Below, piece after piece: positions 48,462-53,195 of a stretch of DNA of 64,000 nucleotides; positions within the stretch are counted from its first letter, which is position 1, and every line of letters starts with the position of its first letter. The stretch lies in NCBI GenBank assembly GCA_000002435.2, contig CM018793.1; one strand, written 5' to 3'. The position numbers and the translations under genes were made by a program. The DNA is from Giardia intestinalis. Its lineage: Eukaryota. A model generated the notes under the pieces. It was given only the letters and a program-made list of their open reading frames with translations, was not told where the DNA came from and did not search any database.

Positions 48462-48920
48462 CTAGAAATAAATAGCCATCATGAGGCCCTTCTGCTTCAT
48501 GCCGCACTTTTTATAGAACTCTGCCGTGTCCGGGTCAGTATCCAGAATAACCTTGTAACAGTCGTTGTTCCTTGCCCGCTCTATCAGTGAAGTAATCAAA
48601 AAGCGCCCTATTCCTTGGTTCCGAAGAGTAAGATCTACGACAACGTCCTCGATATGACCAACAGACCGCCCTGCGTGGAGCAGCTTTGGCTCGATAATAA
48701 GTGTCGCGCATGCACAAACGGTGTCAGTTTCATCCACAACAACAGTTACGTCGTGAGATGGATTTGTGCTGACACTCTTGTAGAAGCTCACGAGCTTTTC
48801 GCGCGGAACTTCTCCCACCACGGAAAGTTGCTCCAGCAGTGTAGTCAGGCGTGAAAGGTCACGTTCCTGGATAGAGCGCAAAGAGTAGCGCCCCAGGTAC
48901 TTGGCCATCCCTCTCTGCAA
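48462..48920 (-). CDS. GNA1: Glucosamine-6-phosphate N-acetyltransferase (GNAT family), an enzyme of the UDP-GalNAc / cyst-wall polysaccharide pathway.
   Basis: ATLIIEPKLLHAGRSVGHIEDVVVDLTLRNQGIGRFLITSLIERARNNDCYKVILD..FYKKCGM aligns block for block with human GNA1 [63 protein letters not shown]. Confidence 0.8.
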   Translation of the reverse strand: MQRGMAKYLGRYSLRSIQERDLSRLTTLLEQLSVVGEVPREKLVSFYKSVSTNPSHDVTVVVDETDTVCACATLIIEPKLLHAGRSVGHIEDVVVDLTLRNQGIGRFLITSLIERARNNDCYKVILDTDPDTAEFYKKCGMKQKGLMMAIYF

Positions 48921-49007
48921 AATTCTCCAAAGGCGAAGGATAAAAAATGTGCAGACATATTACCTTTTCCCGCCTCGTCTCAGCCTTTTTGTAATAAATC
49001 TCCTCAA

Positions 49008-51095
49008 ATGTCTACAGGAGGTCTATTTTCTTCAGGCGTCTACTCTACAAACTTTGCTCCAAATCATAAAAAACACAGGTCTATGGAGGCTGCAGATCTT
49101 GTCCAGGAGCAGCCCGCCCCCATTGTGGTGATAGGGCGGAAAAACCCTAACTCCGACTCTATCCTTTCTGCGGTGGCATATGCCCATTTGCTCCAACGCC
49201 TTATGCCACATAGAACAATAACCGCCGCTGCCGCTGGCCCCATAAATGCACAAGCCTCCTACGTCTTGAAGAGGTTTAAGACAAAGAGTCCTGAAATCAT
49301 TCTCGACATCACTCCCCGTGCCCAGCATTTCAACAAGGACCAGCTAGTTGCCCTTACCGAAGATGAGCCACTGTCGCGTGCCCTGGAGCTCTACTCCATT
49401 TACAAGTTTCACGTTCTTCCGGTAATTAATAGCCAAGATCAGTGCATTGGACAGATTGCGCTGACTGACATGTTTTCTGACTTCTTGAGACCACACAGAG
49501 AGGGAGACCTCAAGAGTGTCATCACTTCCCTCAACACAGTAAAGAAGACGGTAAGGGGCCGGTTTCTCTTTTCATCGTCAATAAGCAATAAATCGAGCTC
49601 AACCCCCATGCGGCCAGGGCACGACCAGATACGACGATACAATATCATCACACCTGTAACCGTCCCGGAATATTTTGCCACCCAGACCTCCCACTTCACT
49701 CCCGAAGACTGGCAGTCTTGTATCTTCGTCGTCGGACACTATCCGGAAGTCATTGACATGATTATACGCAAAGGAGGCGGGTGTATCGTTCTCAGTCGTA
49801 GTAGCCATGTTATTGTTACTGCGAGCTCCCTGGACAGTCTTGTCAACGACAGCGACAGCAGCGACGACGAGTTTGGGGATAACGACCAGGACCCGCGAGG
49901 TTCTTTGAGCCATTCAAACTTACTGGCCACGCCATCTCTGAGCAGTTCTTTGATGACTCCAACGATAGGCGCCGTTAATACGGGAATTAGGCGGAACTCC
50001 AGTAGCTCCACCTTGTCCTCTTCACGAATCTTCACGGAGGAGCTCATCAACATGTTGAAACAAGGCAAGACGTCCGTTATCCTCACAAACATGGCCGTCT
50101 CGAGCGCAGCGATCCTTGTTAAGCAGTCCACCCCGGTCGGTCTCTACGTTAACAAGTCCAAGCACTTAATTGTGCCCGACACTATGATGCTAAGCGAAAT
50201 CAGAAAGAAGTTTGCCACGACTAAGGAGCGGGCCGTCTGTGTGGTTGACCCCTCGACAAACAAGCTCACAGGCGTTGTAACAGACATGGATCTTACAAAG
50301 AAGACACTCATCGAGGTCGTGCTTGTTGACCATAACGACATAGGCGACTCCGTTCAGGGAATAAAGTCCAGCGGGGTAGACATAATTGAAATTATAGACC
50401 ACCATAAGCTCAACAATCCCACAACACCCACTCCGATAAAGGTCACCATAGACCAGGTGGGGAGCACCTGCACCATAGTGACAAAGATGTTCCGGGACAA
50501 TGGAATTGTGCCCCCTGTGAACATCGCAGGGATCTTACTATCTGGAATAATATGCGACACCATTGGCCTCAGATCCCAGACAACAACCATATCTGATAAG
50601 AAAATGTGCGACTATTTAAGCCAGATTGTGGGAGTCAGCAGGCATGAGCTATCGCAGGAGATCTTCACAGCAAGCTCTGTCCTGATGAACTGTCAGAACA
50701 AGGAGAAACTGGTTCGTTCCGACATTCTCTCGTTCGACTTTCCAAACAAGCGCGAGAAGAAGTTTGCGATTGCAGAACTGCAGATCACCCAATACGATAT
50801 ACTCTCTCAGGGTACGCTGGCGGAGCTTCTTTCAATAGCCGAAAAGATTAAGGTGCACGACAAGTATCAGTTCGTGGCCATTCTTGCGACTAACATTGAT
50901 CCTAAGCAATCAGGATGGTCCAGCCTAATCTTCTACAGTGGCCCGGACTCCCTCATAGCTGAGCTCGGGTACACGCTGTTTAACGGAATGGATGGGATAT
51001 ACGAGTCTCGTGACATCACGAGCCGAAAGAAGCAGCTTCTCCCCCACATTCTCAGCGCGCTGAGTACTTTGGTGTTGGAGCGGGACGATTTGTAA
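49008..51095 (+). CDS. CBS-domain-containing family II (DHH/DHHA2) inorganic pyrophosphatase or exopolyphosphatase-like phosphoesterase, with a Ser-rich insert. The true start is possibly at the internal Met (MEAADLV).
   Basis: DHH motif I region VVIGRKNPNSDSILSAVAYAHLL resembles family II PPase GHQNPDTDAICSAIAYA. CBS-like LSRALELYSIYKFHVLPVINSQDQCIGQIALTDM is inserted after it. DHH motifs VLVDHNDIGDSVQGI and IIEIIDHHKL. DHHA2-like GILLSGIICDTIGLRS resembles LLAGIISDTLLFKS. Confidence 0.8.
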   Translation: MSTGGLFSSGVYSTNFAPNHKKHRSMEAADLVQEQPAPIVVIGRKNPNSDSILSAVAYAHLLQRLMPHRTITAAAAGPINAQASYVLKRFKTKSPEIILDITPRAQHFNKDQLVALTEDEPLSRALELYSIYKFHVLPVINSQDQCIGQIALTDMFSDFLRPHREGDLKSVITSLNTVKKTVRGRFLFSSSISNKSSSTPMRPGHDQIRRYNIITPVTVPEYFATQTSHFTPEDWQSCIFVVGHYPEVIDMIIRKGGGCIVLSRSSHVIVTASSLDSLVNDSDSSDDEFGDNDQDPRGSLSHSNLLATPSLSSSLMTPTIGAVNTGIRRNSSSSTLSSSRIFTEELINMLKQGKTSVILTNMAVSSAAILVKQSTPVGLYVNKSKHLIVPDTMMLSEIRKKFATTKERAVCVVDPSTNKLTGVVTDMDLTKKTLIEVVLVDHNDIGDSVQGIKSSGVDIIEIIDHHKLNNPTTPTPIKVTIDQVGSTCTIVTKMFRDNGIVPPVNIAGILLSGIICDTIGLRSQTTTISDKKMCDYLSQIVGVSRHELSQEIFTASSVLMNCQNKEKLVRSDILSFDFPNKREKKFAIAELQITQYDILSQGTLAELLSIAEKIKVHDKYQFVAILATNIDPKQSGWSSLIFYSGPDSLIAELGYTLFNGMDGIYESRDITSRKKQLLPHILSALSTLVLERDDL

Positions 51096-51566: not shown

Positions 51567-53195
51567 ATGGACCTTCATTCCGCCTCGCTGCTCGGAGGGC
51601 TCGTGGTTACATTGGCTTTTTTGCTGATCCTGTATTATAAACATTTGCGGAAGACGCGGCTGCGGCTTTCCCGGGCTTCTTTGAGTGAAAAGCTATCTGT
51701 GGCCACTGGATGGATAGGCCTGACGGGAGTACGCCCAACAATGGAAGATGGCCACGTCATCAATCTTGCATTAAGATATGAGGGAGATAACTCTGAAGAT
51801 TCCTATCCAGCGGAGAATTGCCATCAGCCCTCTGTTTGCCTCTTTGGAATTTTCGACGGGCACAGCGGGACGGCATGCAGTAATTATCTTAAGACAAATT
51901 TACAGAACCTAATATCCAAGGAGCGAGATGTGTTCTATGGGGCAAGCAGCGAGGACGTATGCGAAGCGCTCTGCAGAGCCTTCCTCGCAGCAGACTCAGC
52001 CTTTGCTGACATCTTCTTCGCAGCCAACAAAAAGCACGGGGATCGATCCTCCGTGATACTCCCCACCCCAGGCTCGACAGCATGCATCGGCCTTCTGAAC
52101 AAAGACATGCTCTATGTGGCAAACGTAGGTGACTCTCGCGCAGTGCTCGGCCGTGTTAATAACGCAGACCTCTCTGTATTCCACGTCGACTTGAGCAAGG
52201 ACCACAAACCCAACCGATCTTCGGAAACAATGAGGATACTATCTGCTGGCGGCTCCGTACAGGCATCCCACGTGTCATCTAATAAGTGCCTTGTCAGCGT
52301 TGGCCCTCTTCGCGTTTGGCCAGGTGGACTCAGTGTCTCTCGCGGTATCGGGGACTTTTCTTTGAAAGCTAACAAAGAGTTAAAAAAACAGGGAATCCGG
52401 GGAGACCTCATCTCTGCGTATCCAGAAATCAGGTATACCGTGACAAACATTTGCGATCAATTTTTAGTTATTGCCTGCGACGGCGTTTATGACGTTCTCA
52501 GTAGCAAGGAGGTGGTCGAATTTGTGTACGCTAACCGACCCACAATAATGATTGATGAGATGAAAGCGGCGATGGGGCATAATACAGGTATGGTCGTTGG
52601 CTCCCATGTCGAGGATGAGTTTTCGGATTCCCCACTAGATCAATGCAGCTCCGGCTCCAGCTCCTGTCAAACGCAGAATATCACCAAATCCAAGTATCGC
52701 AATCTTTTAAGAAAGGCACTGCACGGTATAAAGCGGCTGTTTTTCCTCGTCCACCGCTTCTGTGCCGTGCTTTACTACAAGCTACTATCCACTCCACTTA
52801 ACCCCTCAGAGGCCTCAGTGGAGCTCAACGGGGGCGAAGAACCCGCCGACAACCTTGAACTCAACGAGGACATGATCCAGCAAGTTGATTGTCTGTGCGC
52901 ACAAAAGCTGGCCGAGAAACTCGCCCACCTTGCTCTAGAGCGTGAGGCGACAGATAACATAAGCGTTATCGTGGTACTCTTCCGATGGAAGGGAATAACT
53001 CCAAACACCATAGGAGGGTGGCGTGCTTATAACCAAGTGCTCACTATGCACTCGCTCAGGGAGGACGGAGACCTACGCCCACCAATACCAGACCTCTCCG
53101 ACGAGAGCTCATGTATAGCAAGAAACCACGCCGACGACGTCACTCTGTGGATCAGCAAGGACGACCCTAGTTACCCGTTTATCCGAAGCAAGTGA
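51567..53195 (+). CDS. PP2C-family Ser/Thr protein phosphatase with an N-terminal transmembrane anchor and an extended C-terminus.
   Basis: N-terminal TM LLGGLVVTLAFLLILYY. PP2C motifs FGIFDGHSG, VANVGDSRAVL, LSVSRGIGDFSLK, LVIACDGVYDVL and ATDNISVIVV. Confidence 0.9.
   Translation: MDLHSASLLGGLVVTLAFLLILYYKHLRKTRLRLSRASLSEKLSVATGWIGLTGVRPTMEDGHVINLALRYEGDNSEDSYPAENCHQPSVCLFGIFDGHSGTACSNYLKTNLQNLISKERDVFYGASSEDVCEALCRAFLAADSAFADIFFAANKKHGDRSSVILPTPGSTACIGLLNKDMLYVANVGDSRAVLGRVNNADLSVFHVDLSKDHKPNRSSETMRILSAGGSVQASHVSSNKCLVSVGPLRVWPGGLSVSRGIGDFSLKANKELKKQGIRGDLISAYPEIRYTVTNICDQFLVIACDGVYDVLSSKEVVEFVYANRPTIMIDEMKAAMGHNTGMVVGSHVEDEFSDSPLDQCSSGSSSCQTQNITKSKYRNLLRKALHGIKRLFFLVHRFCAVLYYKLLSTPLNPSEASVELNGGEEPADNLELNEDMIQQVDCLCAQKLAEKLAHLALEREATDNISVIVVLFRWKGITPNTIGGWRAYNQVLTMHSLREDGDLRPPIPDLSDESSCIARNHADDVTLWISKDDPSYPFIRSK

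What the first reader, a model, noticed from the sequence alone, without database searches (positions are those of the whole stretch)
49008..51095. Bacterial-type CBS-DHH-DHHA2 (family II) pyrophosphatase in a eukaryotic chromosome
The domain order is a DHH N-terminal motif, then a CBS insertion, then DHH motifs III/IV, then a DHHA2 substrate-binding motif. That order is the hallmark of bacterial CBS-PPases such as those of clostridia. I am not aware of it as a standard eukaryotic architecture, since yeast PPX1 and prune lack CBS domains. In a PPi-dependent glycolytic parasite, a nucleotide-regulated family II PPase or exopolyphosphatase would be metabolically relevant and is a plausible lateral gene transfer. 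The gene also carries a eukaryote-style Ser-rich acidic insert (SLDSLVNDSDSSDDEFGDNDQD..SSSSTLSSS) where bacterial CBS-PPases have the DRTGG module.
Basis: partly seen in the sequence, partly recalled or inferred. Interest (0 to 1): 0.65.

Follow-up and report, generated by a model that had tools for sequence, protein, structure and literature searches.

The report
Giardia pyrophosphatase paralog with altered metal site
This Giardia gene is a known bacterial-type, nucleotide-sensing pyrophosphatase homolog, but it is the copy that has swapped two of its metal-binding residues, so it may not be the ordinary enzyme its annotation says.

Summary
The ORF and its DHH–CBS–CBS–DHH–DHHA2 order are real. 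This is Giardia duodenalis GL50803_8163 (XP_001709328), already annotated as a Mn-dependent pyrophosphatase.

Three corrections:
- The CDS starts at 49083 (670 aa), not 49008.
- The Ser-rich insert does not replace the DRTGG module. It is a disordered loop inside a DRTGG-like fold whose sequence has degenerated.
- Motif I is not intact. It reads GRKNPNSD where bacteria have GHxNPDxD, so two of the three protein ligands of metal M1 (His→Arg, Asp→Asn) are replaced.

This R/N state is fixed in every ortholog, including G. muris. It is absent from about 280 bacterial homologs and from the second Giardia paralog (GL50803_8074, fully canonical, ~57 kb away). The gene is expressed and is as constrained as its paralog. 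Spironucleus, Hexamita and an unnamed diplomonad also carry degenerate copies, and the first and last also have a canonical one.

Most likely it is a catalytically attenuated or altered CBS-PPase paralog, possibly a partner of the canonical enzyme. The lateral transfer is plausible but predates the diplomonad radiation, and the donor is unresolved.

The parts
49083..51095 (+). Revised CDS of GL50803_8163 / XP_001709328.2 (670 aa plus stop), the divergent 'R/N' CBS-PPase paralog
   Evidence: ORF. The start codon is conserved only at 49083. The 670-aa sequence matches XP_001709328.2 exactly. The gene ID comes from adjacency to GL50803_14651 and the 2088-nt model length.
49008..49082 (+). Non-conserved 25-codon ORF extension; most likely 5' leader or promoter, not coding
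   Evidence: In three other isolates the ATG is missing and the frame contains stops.
49134..49157 (+). DHH motif I, GRKNPNSD. Arg44 (49137-49139) replaces the M1 His ligand, Asn48 (49149-49151) replaces the M1 Asp ligand, and Asp50 (general base / M2 ligand) is kept
   Evidence: Ungapped HMMER alignment to solved family II PPases. Residue table. Of 312 homologs, 284 have His at the first position and 284 have Asp at the second. Ligand roles from PMC7062746 and PMC13219714.
49308..49502 (+). CBS1 domain. The ribose-phosphate motif reads GQIALTD here and GQI(S/T)LTD in orthologs
   Evidence: Pfam CBS. Motif definition from PMC11172384. Alignment.
49503..49805 (+). Linker plus first half of a sequence-degenerate DRTGG-like domain (GHYPE where bacteria have GDRxD; LSRS where they have TGG)
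   Evidence: Alignment. hhalign probability 70%, E 4e-5. β-α-β units in the AF2 model. Foldseek to 3l2b/3l31 with target TM 0.81-0.83. Pfam DRTGG is negative.
49806..50021 (+). Ser/Asp-rich low-complexity insert (aa 267-338): a disordered loop inside the DRTGG-like domain and the fastest-evolving segment
   Evidence: pLDDT below 50 over model residues 241-313. dN 0.21-0.27, against 0.004-0.09 in the other segments. Both Giardia paralogs have an insert in the same loop.
50022..50306 (+). Second half of the DRTGG-like domain followed by CBS2 (ribose-phosphate motif GVVTDMD)
50307..50642 (+). C-terminal part of the DHH domain with intact motifs: Asp441 in DHN (50328-50330), D464-H465-H466 (50397-50405) and Asp517 (50556-50558). 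This is the most constrained segment
   Evidence: Residue table. dN 0.004-0.03.
50643..51077 (+). DHHA2 substrate-binding domain with the SRKKQ signature (aa 672-676, 51021-51035)
   Evidence: Pfam DHHA2 at 29 bits, just above the 27-bit cutoff. SRKKQ is kept here but reads SKNNQ in G. muris.
48909..49082 (.). Divergent promoter region shared with the glucosamine-6-P N-acetyltransferase gene. It contains an invariant TCTACAG (49011-49017, matching the Myb2 motif CWACAG) and the A-rich element CATAAAAAACACAG (49065-49078)
   Evidence: Four-isolate alignment. Motif definition from PMC8700996. GL50803_14651 is a Myb2 ChIP target. The motif is not enriched in the window.

Best explanation
GL50803_8163 is the divergent member of a pair of diplomonad CBS-domain family II pyrophosphatase paralogs.

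It keeps the whole fold: a split DHH domain, two CBS domains flanking a DRTGG-like module, and DHHA2. It also keeps the CBS ribose-phosphate motifs, the M2 metal ligands (Asp50, Asp441, His465, Asp517), His466 and the SRKKQ substrate signature. It has replaced two of the three protein ligands of the M1 metal (His→Arg44, Asp→Asn48).

Family II PPases generate their nucleophile on a water held between M1, M2 and a substrate-borne metal, and an Arg side chain cannot ligate a metal. The canonical trinuclear mechanism therefore cannot operate unchanged.

The most likely reading is a catalytically attenuated or mechanistically altered protein that still binds adenine nucleotides and probably PPi. 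It would work alongside the fully canonical paralog GL50803_8074 in nucleotide-gated PPi homeostasis, possibly inside mixed tetramers.

Shown: the homology, the substitutions, their fixation, purifying selection, transcription, and the existence of the canonical paralog. Inferred: reduced or altered catalysis, nucleotide binding, and any hetero-oligomer.
For: - The substitutions are read from ungapped alignments to solved enzymes and from multiple alignments.
- M1 is ligated by one His, Asp12 and Asp72 in Shewanella numbering (PMC7062746). The active-site set is His8/Asp12/Asp14/Asp72/His94/His95/Asp146, and a single D14N change costs 4,000-10,000-fold in kcat/Km (PMC13219714).
- R/N is present in all window-clade orthologs examined, including G. 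muris at 49% identity. Of 312 homologs, 284 have His and 284 have Asp at these positions. Full-length deviants are almost all diplomonad copies.
- Only 14 sites have every ortholog differing from an otherwise conserved state. Most are V/I/L swaps, and the two ligand changes are among the few radical ones.
- The gene is not decaying. dN/dS is about 0.03, and dN equals that of the canonical paralog in a matched genome pair (0.087 versus 0.092). The remaining active-site segment is the most conserved part. There is no significant rate acceleration.
- Both genes are transcribed and co-induced in vivo: FPKM 199/104 for 8163 and 926/244 for 8074. Expression is also seen in the encystation series.
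- NCBIfam NF011443 scores are graded. Canonical diplomonad copies score 318-369, the window clade 294, and the dead Hexamitinae copies 212, against a cutoff of 335.
- Degenerate copies recur across diplomonads. Spironucleus has a canonical plus a dead copy. Sample SRR31929897 has a canonical copy plus two tandem D149N copies. Hexamita has several dead copies.
- Bacterial CBS-PPases are obligate tetramers built from separately dimerising catalytic and regulatory parts (bioRxiv 10.1101/2020.04.07.028951). That makes mixed oligomers structurally conceivable.
Against: - No biochemical data exist for either Giardia paralog in the literature I could search.
- Asn can still ligate Mn2+ or Mg2+ through its amide oxygen. 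I found no direct mutational data for the His9 or Asp13 positions.
- I could not inspect coordinates of the AF2 model, so the geometry of Arg44 and Asn48 is not verified.
- Strong conservation of the rest of the active site would also fit a still-active enzyme.
- The hetero-oligomer idea rests only on co-expression and analogy.
- Orthology between the window clade and the dead Hexamitinae copies is not supported. Bootstrap is 9-36% and no shared derived residues were found.
Confidence: 0.5

Rival explanations
1. It is an ordinary, fully active nucleotide-regulated CBS-PPase isozyme, as annotated. Asn48 still binds M1 and Arg44 is tolerated. The two paralogs differ only in expression or regulation.
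For: - Five of seven metal/catalytic residues and SRKKQ are intact.
- The active-site segment is the most constrained part of the gene.
- There is no rate acceleration.
- Significant DHH, CBS and DHHA2 hits.
- A published review treats the catalytic residues as conserved.
Against: - His and Asp at these positions are essentially invariant in about 280 bacterial homologs and in all canonical diplomonad copies.
- Arg cannot coordinate a metal.
- A D→N change at the neighbouring ligand costs about 10^4-fold.
- The G. muris ortholog has also lost the Arg-Lys of SRKKQ (SKNNQ), and Pfam no longer detects its DHHA2.
- The protein fails every NCBIfam equivalog cutoff, while the G. duodenalis canonical paralog passes one.
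Confidence: 0.25
2. It is an enzyme with changed chemistry. One option is a Mg2+-only, binuclear (M2 plus substrate metal) PPase in which the Arg44 guanidinium takes over the electrostatic role of M1. Another is a hydrolase for a different phosphoanhydride, such as polyP or a nucleotide.
For: - The substitutions are targeted rather than part of general decay.
- The M2 site, His466 and SRKKQ are retained.
- The DHHA2 domain shows a non-significant excess of lineage-specific changes (21 versus 13).
- The DHH superfamily covers PPases, polyphosphatases and nanoRNases (fold hits).
Against: - There is no direct evidence.
- SRKKQ, the PPi-binding signature, is kept in G. duodenalis, which argues against a new substrate.
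- It is lost in G. muris, which argues against any single conserved substrate site.
Confidence: 0.15
3. It is a decaying pseudogene, an assembly artefact or bacterial contamination.
For: None beyond the two substitutions.
Against: - The 670-codon ORF is intact in many independent assemblies; the 90% identity cluster is seen on 177 contigs.
- Synteny with eukaryotic neighbours (GNA1, LRR protein) is conserved in other isolates.
- dN/dS is about 0.03.
- It is transcribed.
- GC content matches the rest of the window.
Confidence: 0.02

Closest known systems
Bacterial CBS-domain family II pyrophosphatases (e.g. Clostridium perfringens cpPPase, Desulfitobacterium hafniense dhPPase; NCBIfam PRK14869)
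   Same: Same domain order: DHH-N, CBS1, DRTGG-type module, CBS2, DHH-C, DHHA2. The regulatory-region fold matches 3l2b/3l31 with target TM 0.81-0.83. The CBS ribose-phosphate motifs, M2 ligands, DHH triad and SRKKQ are present.
   Different: His→Arg and Asp→Asn at the M1 site. The DRTGG signature is lost, so Pfam is negative. A 72-aa disordered Ser/Asp-rich loop sits inside that module. Only about 30% identity, and all curated equivalog cutoffs are missed.
Giardia paralog GL50803_8074 (XP_001709297 / A8B5T0, 691 aa)
   Same: Same architecture, with an insert in the same DRTGG loop and the same 2-residue insertion before DHH. Same chromosome, about 57 kb away. Co-expressed and co-induced in vivo. 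Equally constrained.
   Different: 36% identity. 8074 keeps all seven metal/catalytic residues and passes NF011443. It has 2.3-4.7 times more mRNA.
Degenerate CBS-PPase paralogs of other diplomonads (Spironucleus salmonicida V6LS84; Hexamita inflata A0AA86NBB2 and A0AA86UZS7; tandem D149N pair from sample SRR31929897)
   Same: They belong to the same diplomonad clade, are retained full-length and have altered active sites. In Spironucleus and SRR31929897 they sit beside a canonical copy.
   Different: Those copies have lost far more: DHN, DHH and the motif IV Asp in the Hexamitinae copies, or a different single ligand (Asp149→Asn) in the tandem pair. Orthology with the window clade is unresolved.
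Canonical (CBS-less) family II PPases (B. subtilis, Streptococcus, Shewanella)
   Same: Catalytic DHH and DHHA2 domains (PDB E 2e-31; Foldseek E 2e-21).
   Different: They have no regulatory insert, they form dimers, and all ligands are intact.
Eukaryotic DHH/DHHA2 proteins: yeast PPX1 exopolyphosphatase and prune
   Same: The DHH + DHHA2 fold (Foldseek E 3e-12 to 2qb6/2qb7).
   Different: They have no CBS or DRTGG. They are not detected by sequence at E<=0.01. The window gene is clearly not part of that eukaryotic lineage.

Membership tests
Family II (DHH/DHHA2) inorganic pyrophosphatase | DHH domain followed by a DHHA2 domain | tested here: met
   Pfam DHH 57 bits and DHHA2 29 bits, both above cutoff. 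PDB family II PPases at E 2e-31. Foldseek E 2e-21.
Family II (DHH/DHHA2) inorganic pyrophosphatase | Complete set of metal/catalytic residues: His9, Asp13, Asp15, Asp75, His97, His98, Asp149 (B. subtilis numbering) | tested here: not met
   The states are R, N, D, D, H, H, D. Both changed residues are M1 ligands.
Family II (DHH/DHHA2) inorganic pyrophosphatase | C-terminal SRKKQ substrate-binding signature | tested here: met
   SRKKQ at aa 672-676. Orthologs vary: SRKRQ, SRRRQ, and SKNNQ in G. muris.
Family II (DHH/DHHA2) inorganic pyrophosphatase | Score above NCBIfam's curated equivalog cutoff | tested here: not met
   Best scores are 303.9 against a cutoff of 483, and 294.5 against 335. The G. 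duodenalis canonical paralog scores 369 and passes NF011443.
Family II (DHH/DHHA2) inorganic pyrophosphatase | Mn2+/Co2+-dependent PPi hydrolysis | not testable with these tools
   Needs an enzyme assay and a metal analysis.
CBS-PPase subfamily | Pair of CBS domains inserted within the DHH domain | tested here: met
   Two Pfam CBS stretches between DHH-N and DHH-C. Fold match to the cpPPase regulatory region.
CBS-PPase subfamily | DRTGG domain between the CBS domains (present in most members, not all; needed for activation by Ap4A) | tested here: inconclusive
   Pfam PF07085 is not detected, even after deleting the insert. hhalign gives 70% probability. The fold-level match to 3l2b/3l31 covers the whole target with TM 0.81-0.83, but the AF2 input alignment contained DRTGG-bearing bacterial sequences.
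CBS-PPase subfamily | [quoted passage not shown] | tested here: met
   CBS2 reads GVVTDMD. CBS1 reads GQIALTD, with Ala in this isolate and Ser/Thr in orthologs.
CBS-PPase subfamily | Homotetramer with allosteric regulation by AMP/ADP/ATP/Ap4A | not testable with these tools
   Property described for the bacterial enzymes.
Laterally transferred bacterial gene in Giardia | Nested within, or sister to, a specific bacterial group to the exclusion of other eukaryotes | tested here: inconclusive
   Diplomonads are monophyletic (98.5-99%). Barthelona is adjacent to them (39% and 95.5%). No bacterial sister is resolved, and only NJ trees were possible. Other protist CBS-PPases were not available to me.

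The most novel reading that the evidence does not exclude
Diplomonads maintain a two-component PPi-control system. One component is a catalytically competent CBS-PPase (GL50803_8074 in Giardia). The other is one or more active-site-degenerate paralogs (GL50803_8163 in Giardia; fully dead copies in Spironucleus and Hexamita). The degenerate copies would assemble with the active one into mixed tetramers and act as nucleotide- or PPi-sensing regulatory subunits. This would throttle PPi hydrolysis in organisms whose glycolysis runs on PPi. It would be a pseudoenzyme-partner arrangement not described for any pyrophosphatase.
Probability: 0.2. Interest if true: 0.65.

Novelty: new variant of a known kind. 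Interest (0 to 1): 0.4.

Why it matters
Giardia uses PPi as an energy currency (PPi-dependent phosphofructokinase and pyruvate phosphate dikinase), so uncontrolled PPi hydrolysis would be wasteful. How these parasites keep PPi high while still removing biosynthetic PPi is not settled.

Recognising that Giardia has one canonical and one M1-altered CBS-PPase changes which gene should be studied as 'the' Giardia family II PPase. A recent review modelled the altered copy, XP_001709328.2. It also suggests a regulatory layer and a straightforward experiment: assay both proteins, with back-mutations. Mammals lack family II PPases, so both proteins are possible drug targets.

Tried and rejected
- **Paralog in the window.** tblastn finds only one locus. 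The paralog lies about 57 kb away.
- **Pfam DRTGG.** Scans of the full protein, of an insert-deleted regulatory region and of an isolated DRTGG-like segment were all negative. phmmer of the regulatory region against the PDB gave only E 0.06 to 3l2b/3l31. The fold-level match was needed.
- **Mutational data for His9/Asp13.** The literature searches returned irrelevant papers. I used the Shewanella structural and mutagenesis papers instead.
- **Orthology with the dead Hexamitinae copies.** Shared-derived-residue counts were inconclusive, as were the bootstrap bipartitions (WIN+dead 9%, WIN+Giardia-canonical 36%).
- **Naming a bacterial donor.** Opitutales are the best hits. The tree shows they are merely short-branched, and the diplomonad stem attaches deep in the bacterial tree. 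Barthelona's best hits are Desulfuromonadales, yet it does not group with them in the tree.
- **Segmental duplication.** Both paralogs seemed to be followed by a PP2C gene. I dropped the idea because the assemblage-A canonical locus has no PP2C within 10 kb.
- **Myb2-type motif enrichment.** TCTACAG occurs 10 times in the window against 9.7 expected. Only its conservation across isolates is informative.
- **Alignment-profile search for more eukaryotic members.** It returned only bacteria beyond the Giardia copies.
- **Model geometry.** The AF2 coordinates could not be read, so the position of Arg44 and Asn48 was not measured.
Full report
**Observation.** The window is Giardia duodenalis DNA. 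The 695-codon ORF at 49008..51095 (+) exists, and its translation matches GenBank entries named 'manganese-dependent inorganic pyrophosphatase' exactly (XP_001709328.1, ESU39704.1). The 670-residue form that starts at Met26 is the re-annotated XP_001709328.2 / KAE8305086.1. Pfam finds a DHH domain split across residues 39-514 (2.8e-15), two CBS stretches (1.2e-10) and DHHA2 (1.4e-6). NCBIfam's CBS-type PPase models (PRK14869 series) hit at E 2e-90, but below every curated cutoff. Solved family II PPases match at E 2e-31 in two blocks that flank the insert.

**Gene boundaries.** I aligned the upstream region with three other Giardia isolates recovered through their orthologous proteins (loci L001-L003). 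The ATG at 49008 is not conserved, and the upstream frame in those isolates contains stop codons. The ATG at 49083 and an A-rich element immediately before it are conserved. The CDS is 49083..51095 (670 aa). Residue numbers below refer to the 695-aa ORF.

**Identity and expression.** In a genome-ordered expression table, GL50803_8163 lies directly beside GL50803_14651, a glucosamine-6-phosphate N-acetyltransferase on the chr5 reverse strand. That is the arrangement in this window. The divergent neighbour at 48462..48920 (-) matches GNA1 structures at E 9e-22. In another dataset GL50803_8163 has a 2088-nt model, equal to this ORF.

- It is transcribed at FPKM 104 in vitro and 199 in mouse-gut foci.
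- Its level rises less than two-fold during encystation.
- One peptide was reported in a mitosome-enriched fraction.

**What is already known.** A 2024 review, citing Baykov et al. 2017, states that CBS-containing family II PPases occur in Giardia and several other protists. It models XP_001709328.2, notes its extra N-terminal region and internal loop, and treats the catalytic residues as conserved.

**The DRTGG question.** The evidence is as follows.

- In alignments the blocks on both sides of the insert align with the bacterial DRTGG region: IFVVGHYPE...IVLS against IIIVGDRQD...LVIT, then ...TSVILTNMAVSSAA against ...VSVIISPYDSATTA.
- Pfam's DRTGG model detects nothing in any Giardia copy, even after the insert is deleted. 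It scores 62 bits on the nearest bacterial homolog.
- Profile-profile comparison gives 70% probability (E 4e-5) over the first half.
- An AlphaFold2 model (pLDDT 80.8) folds both flanks into regular β-α units. The insert (model residues 241-313) stays below pLDDT 50.
- Foldseek matches the C. perfringens CBS-DRTGG-CBS crystal structures 3l2b/3l31 at E 2e-13, with target-normalised TM 0.81-0.83 over the whole 233-residue target. The CBS pair alone could not give that score.

The module is retained as a fold, has lost its signature residues, and carries a disordered loop. One caveat applies: the AF2 input alignment contained DRTGG-bearing bacterial sequences. The canonical Giardia paralog has an insert in the same loop, so the insert predates the duplication.

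**The metal ligands.** Motif I reads GRKNPNSD where bacterial enzymes read GHxNPDxD. Arg44 and Asn48 replace the residues equivalent to B. subtilis His9 and Asp13. The published Shewanella work assigns M1 to one His, Asp12 and Asp72. It lists His8, Asp12, Asp14, Asp72, His94, His95 and Asp146 as the core, and reports a 4,000-10,000-fold loss for D14N. Two of the three protein ligands of M1 are therefore gone. Asp50, Asp441, His465, His466, Asp517 and SRKKQ remain.

Of 312 homologs of at least 400 aa that I collected, 284 have His and 284 have Asp at these two positions. The full-length exceptions are diplomonad copies, one bacterial cluster with Asp→His, and one truncated sequence. All window-clade orthologs show R/N, including G. 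muris at 49% identity. The G. muris protein has also changed SRKKQ to SKNNQ.

**The paralog.** Giardia has a second copy, GL50803_8074 (XP_001709297, 691 aa).

- It is 36% identical to the window protein and lies about 57 kb away on the same chromosome, outside this window.
- It keeps every canonical residue and passes NCBIfam NF011443 (369 bits against a cutoff of 335). The window protein scores 294.
- G. muris has both copies, so the duplication predates the split between G. muris and G. duodenalis.

**Selection.** Nei-Gojobori estimates give dN/dS of about 0.03 for both paralogs. Synonymous sites are saturated, so the ratio is approximate. In a matched genome pair, dN is 0.087 for the window gene and 0.092 for the canonical one. 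The DHH-C segment carrying the remaining ligands is the most conserved (dN 0.004-0.03), and the insert is the fastest (0.21-0.27). Relative-rate tests against bacterial outgroups show no significant acceleration. Only the DHHA2 domain shows a non-significant excess (21 versus 13 unique changes).

Only 14 sites have all window-clade orthologs differing from an otherwise conserved state. Most of them are V/I/L exchanges, and H→R and D→N are among the few radical changes. This looks like targeted remodelling of one metal site in a well-maintained protein, not decay.

**Wider pattern.** An exhaustive search of 1.84 billion representatives found further eukaryote-type relatives, which I identified by exact look-up.

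| Organism | Canonical copy | Degenerate copy or copies |
|---|---|---|
| Spironucleus salmonicida | V6LU25 | V6LS84 (dead) |
| Hexamita inflata | none among the sequences I retrieved | two dead types, in several copies (e.g. DHN→GCS, DHH→DVN) |
| Unnamed diplomonad-like organism (SRR31929897) | 742 aa | two head-to-tail copies with Asp149→Asn |

Degenerate copies therefore recur in every diplomonad lineage examined. Giardia, Spironucleus and SRR31929897 also carry a canonical copy. Whether all this traces to one ancient duplication is unresolved.

**Origin.**
- Neighbour-joining trees with bootstrapping recover diplomonad monophyly at 98.5-99%.
- The metamonad Barthelona sits next to the diplomonad stem, with 39% support in one taxon sample and 95.5% in the other. 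Its best BLAST-type hits are Desulfuromonadales. Long-branch attraction cannot be excluded.
- The diplomonads' best bacterial hits are Opitutales/Verrucomicrobiota. These simply have short branches, and no bacterial sister group is resolved.

A bacterial origin is plausible, but the transfer is old, at least pre-diplomonad, and the donor is unknown. I could not obtain the other protist CBS-PPases to test for a single eukaryotic origin.

**Mechanism.** Bacterial CBS-PPases are tetramers whose catalytic and regulatory parts each dimerise. They are stabilised by the transition-metal cofactor, inhibited by AMP/ADP and activated by ATP. Only DRTGG-bearing forms are activated by Ap4A. The window protein keeps the CBS ribose-phosphate motifs, so nucleotide binding is likely.

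With M1's His and Asp replaced, and Arg unable to ligate a metal, the trinuclear nucleophile-generating centre cannot form in the canonical way. My estimates are as follows.

- About 0.5: a catalytically attenuated or altered protein acting with the canonical paralog. Both genes are co-expressed and co-induced in vivo. I give the specific mixed-tetramer version about 0.2.
- 0.25: a normally active isozyme.
- 0.15: an enzyme with changed metal use or substrate.
- Effectively excluded: a pseudogene or contaminant.

None of the functional statements is shown. They need enzyme assays.

**Verdict.** The added value here comes down to five points:
- the corrected start codon;
- the retained but degenerate DRTGG-like fold;
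- the fixed loss of two M1 ligands in this paralog, which I did not find reported;
- a canonical partner gene nearby;
- recurrent degenerate copies across diplomonads.

Noticed in passing
window 49011-49017, within the intergenic region 48909-49082: An invariant TCTACAG, matching the experimentally verified Giardia Myb2 motif CWACAG, lies in the 174-bp divergent promoter shared by the PPase gene and the glucosamine-6-P N-acetyltransferase gene. The latter is GL50803_14651, reported as a Myb2 ChIP-seq target. The motif is conserved in four isolates while the surrounding sequence is not, but it is not enriched in the window (10 found, 9.7 expected). The PPase mRNA rises less than two-fold in encystation.
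   Followed up: partly
window 48462-48920 (-): The divergent neighbour is a GNA1-type glucosamine-6-phosphate N-acetyltransferase (PDB 1i1d, E 9e-22). The listed ORF starts at a TTG. Orthologs are 148 aa, so the real start is probably the ATG at 48908. This is the weakly regulated GNA paralog, not the strongly encystation-induced GL50803_14259.
   Followed up: partly
L008:4381-6957 and L008:7182-9422 (Logan SRR31929897); L006:10001-12229 (same sample): An unidentified diplomonad-like organism carries two head-to-tail CBS-PPase genes (858 and 746 aa). Both have the motif IV Asp→Asn, and one has also lost SRKKQ. A canonical 742-aa copy sits on another contig. The organism was not identified.
   Followed up: partly
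proteins P0094/P0237/P0238, P0101/P0318 (Hexamita inflata); P0098 (Spironucleus salmonicida): These are full-length CBS-PPase homologs with thoroughly destroyed active sites (e.g. DHN→GCS, DHH→DVN, Asp149→Gln or Ala). SRKKQ is still intact in the P0094-type Hexamita copies and in the Spironucleus copy. They are present in multiple copies and annotated as 'inorganic diphosphatase'. They form a 100%-supported clade.
   Followed up: partly
protein P0099 (Barthelona sp. PCE, KAL0229683.1): This deep-branching metamonad has a CBS-PPase with a recognisable DRTGG domain (Pfam-positive) and its own acidic insert. Its best hits are Desulfuromonadales, yet it groups next to the diplomonads in NJ trees. 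The gene model appears truncated at the N-terminus, starting inside motif I.
   Followed up: partly
L007:12045-13979 (-) versus L007:10001-12076 (+); the same in L004 and L005: At the canonical paralog's locus, the convergent downstream gene call overlaps the 3' end of the PPase CDS by about 32 nt in three isolates.
   Followed up: no
window 51567-53195 (+): A 542-aa PP2C-type protein phosphatase with an N-terminal hydrophobic segment lies directly downstream, after a 471-nt spacer that is long by the standard of this compact genome. An apparent PP2C near the assemblage-B canonical paralog (L004) was not seen in the assemblage-A locus (L007), so I dropped the idea of a segmental duplication.
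   Followed up: partly
proteins P0064/P0065 (ENA metagenomes, cluster of 93 members): This bacterial CBS-PPase cluster has the Asp13-equivalent replaced by His (states HHDDHHD). It is the only abundant bacterial deviation at the metal ligands among 312 homologs.
   Followed up: no
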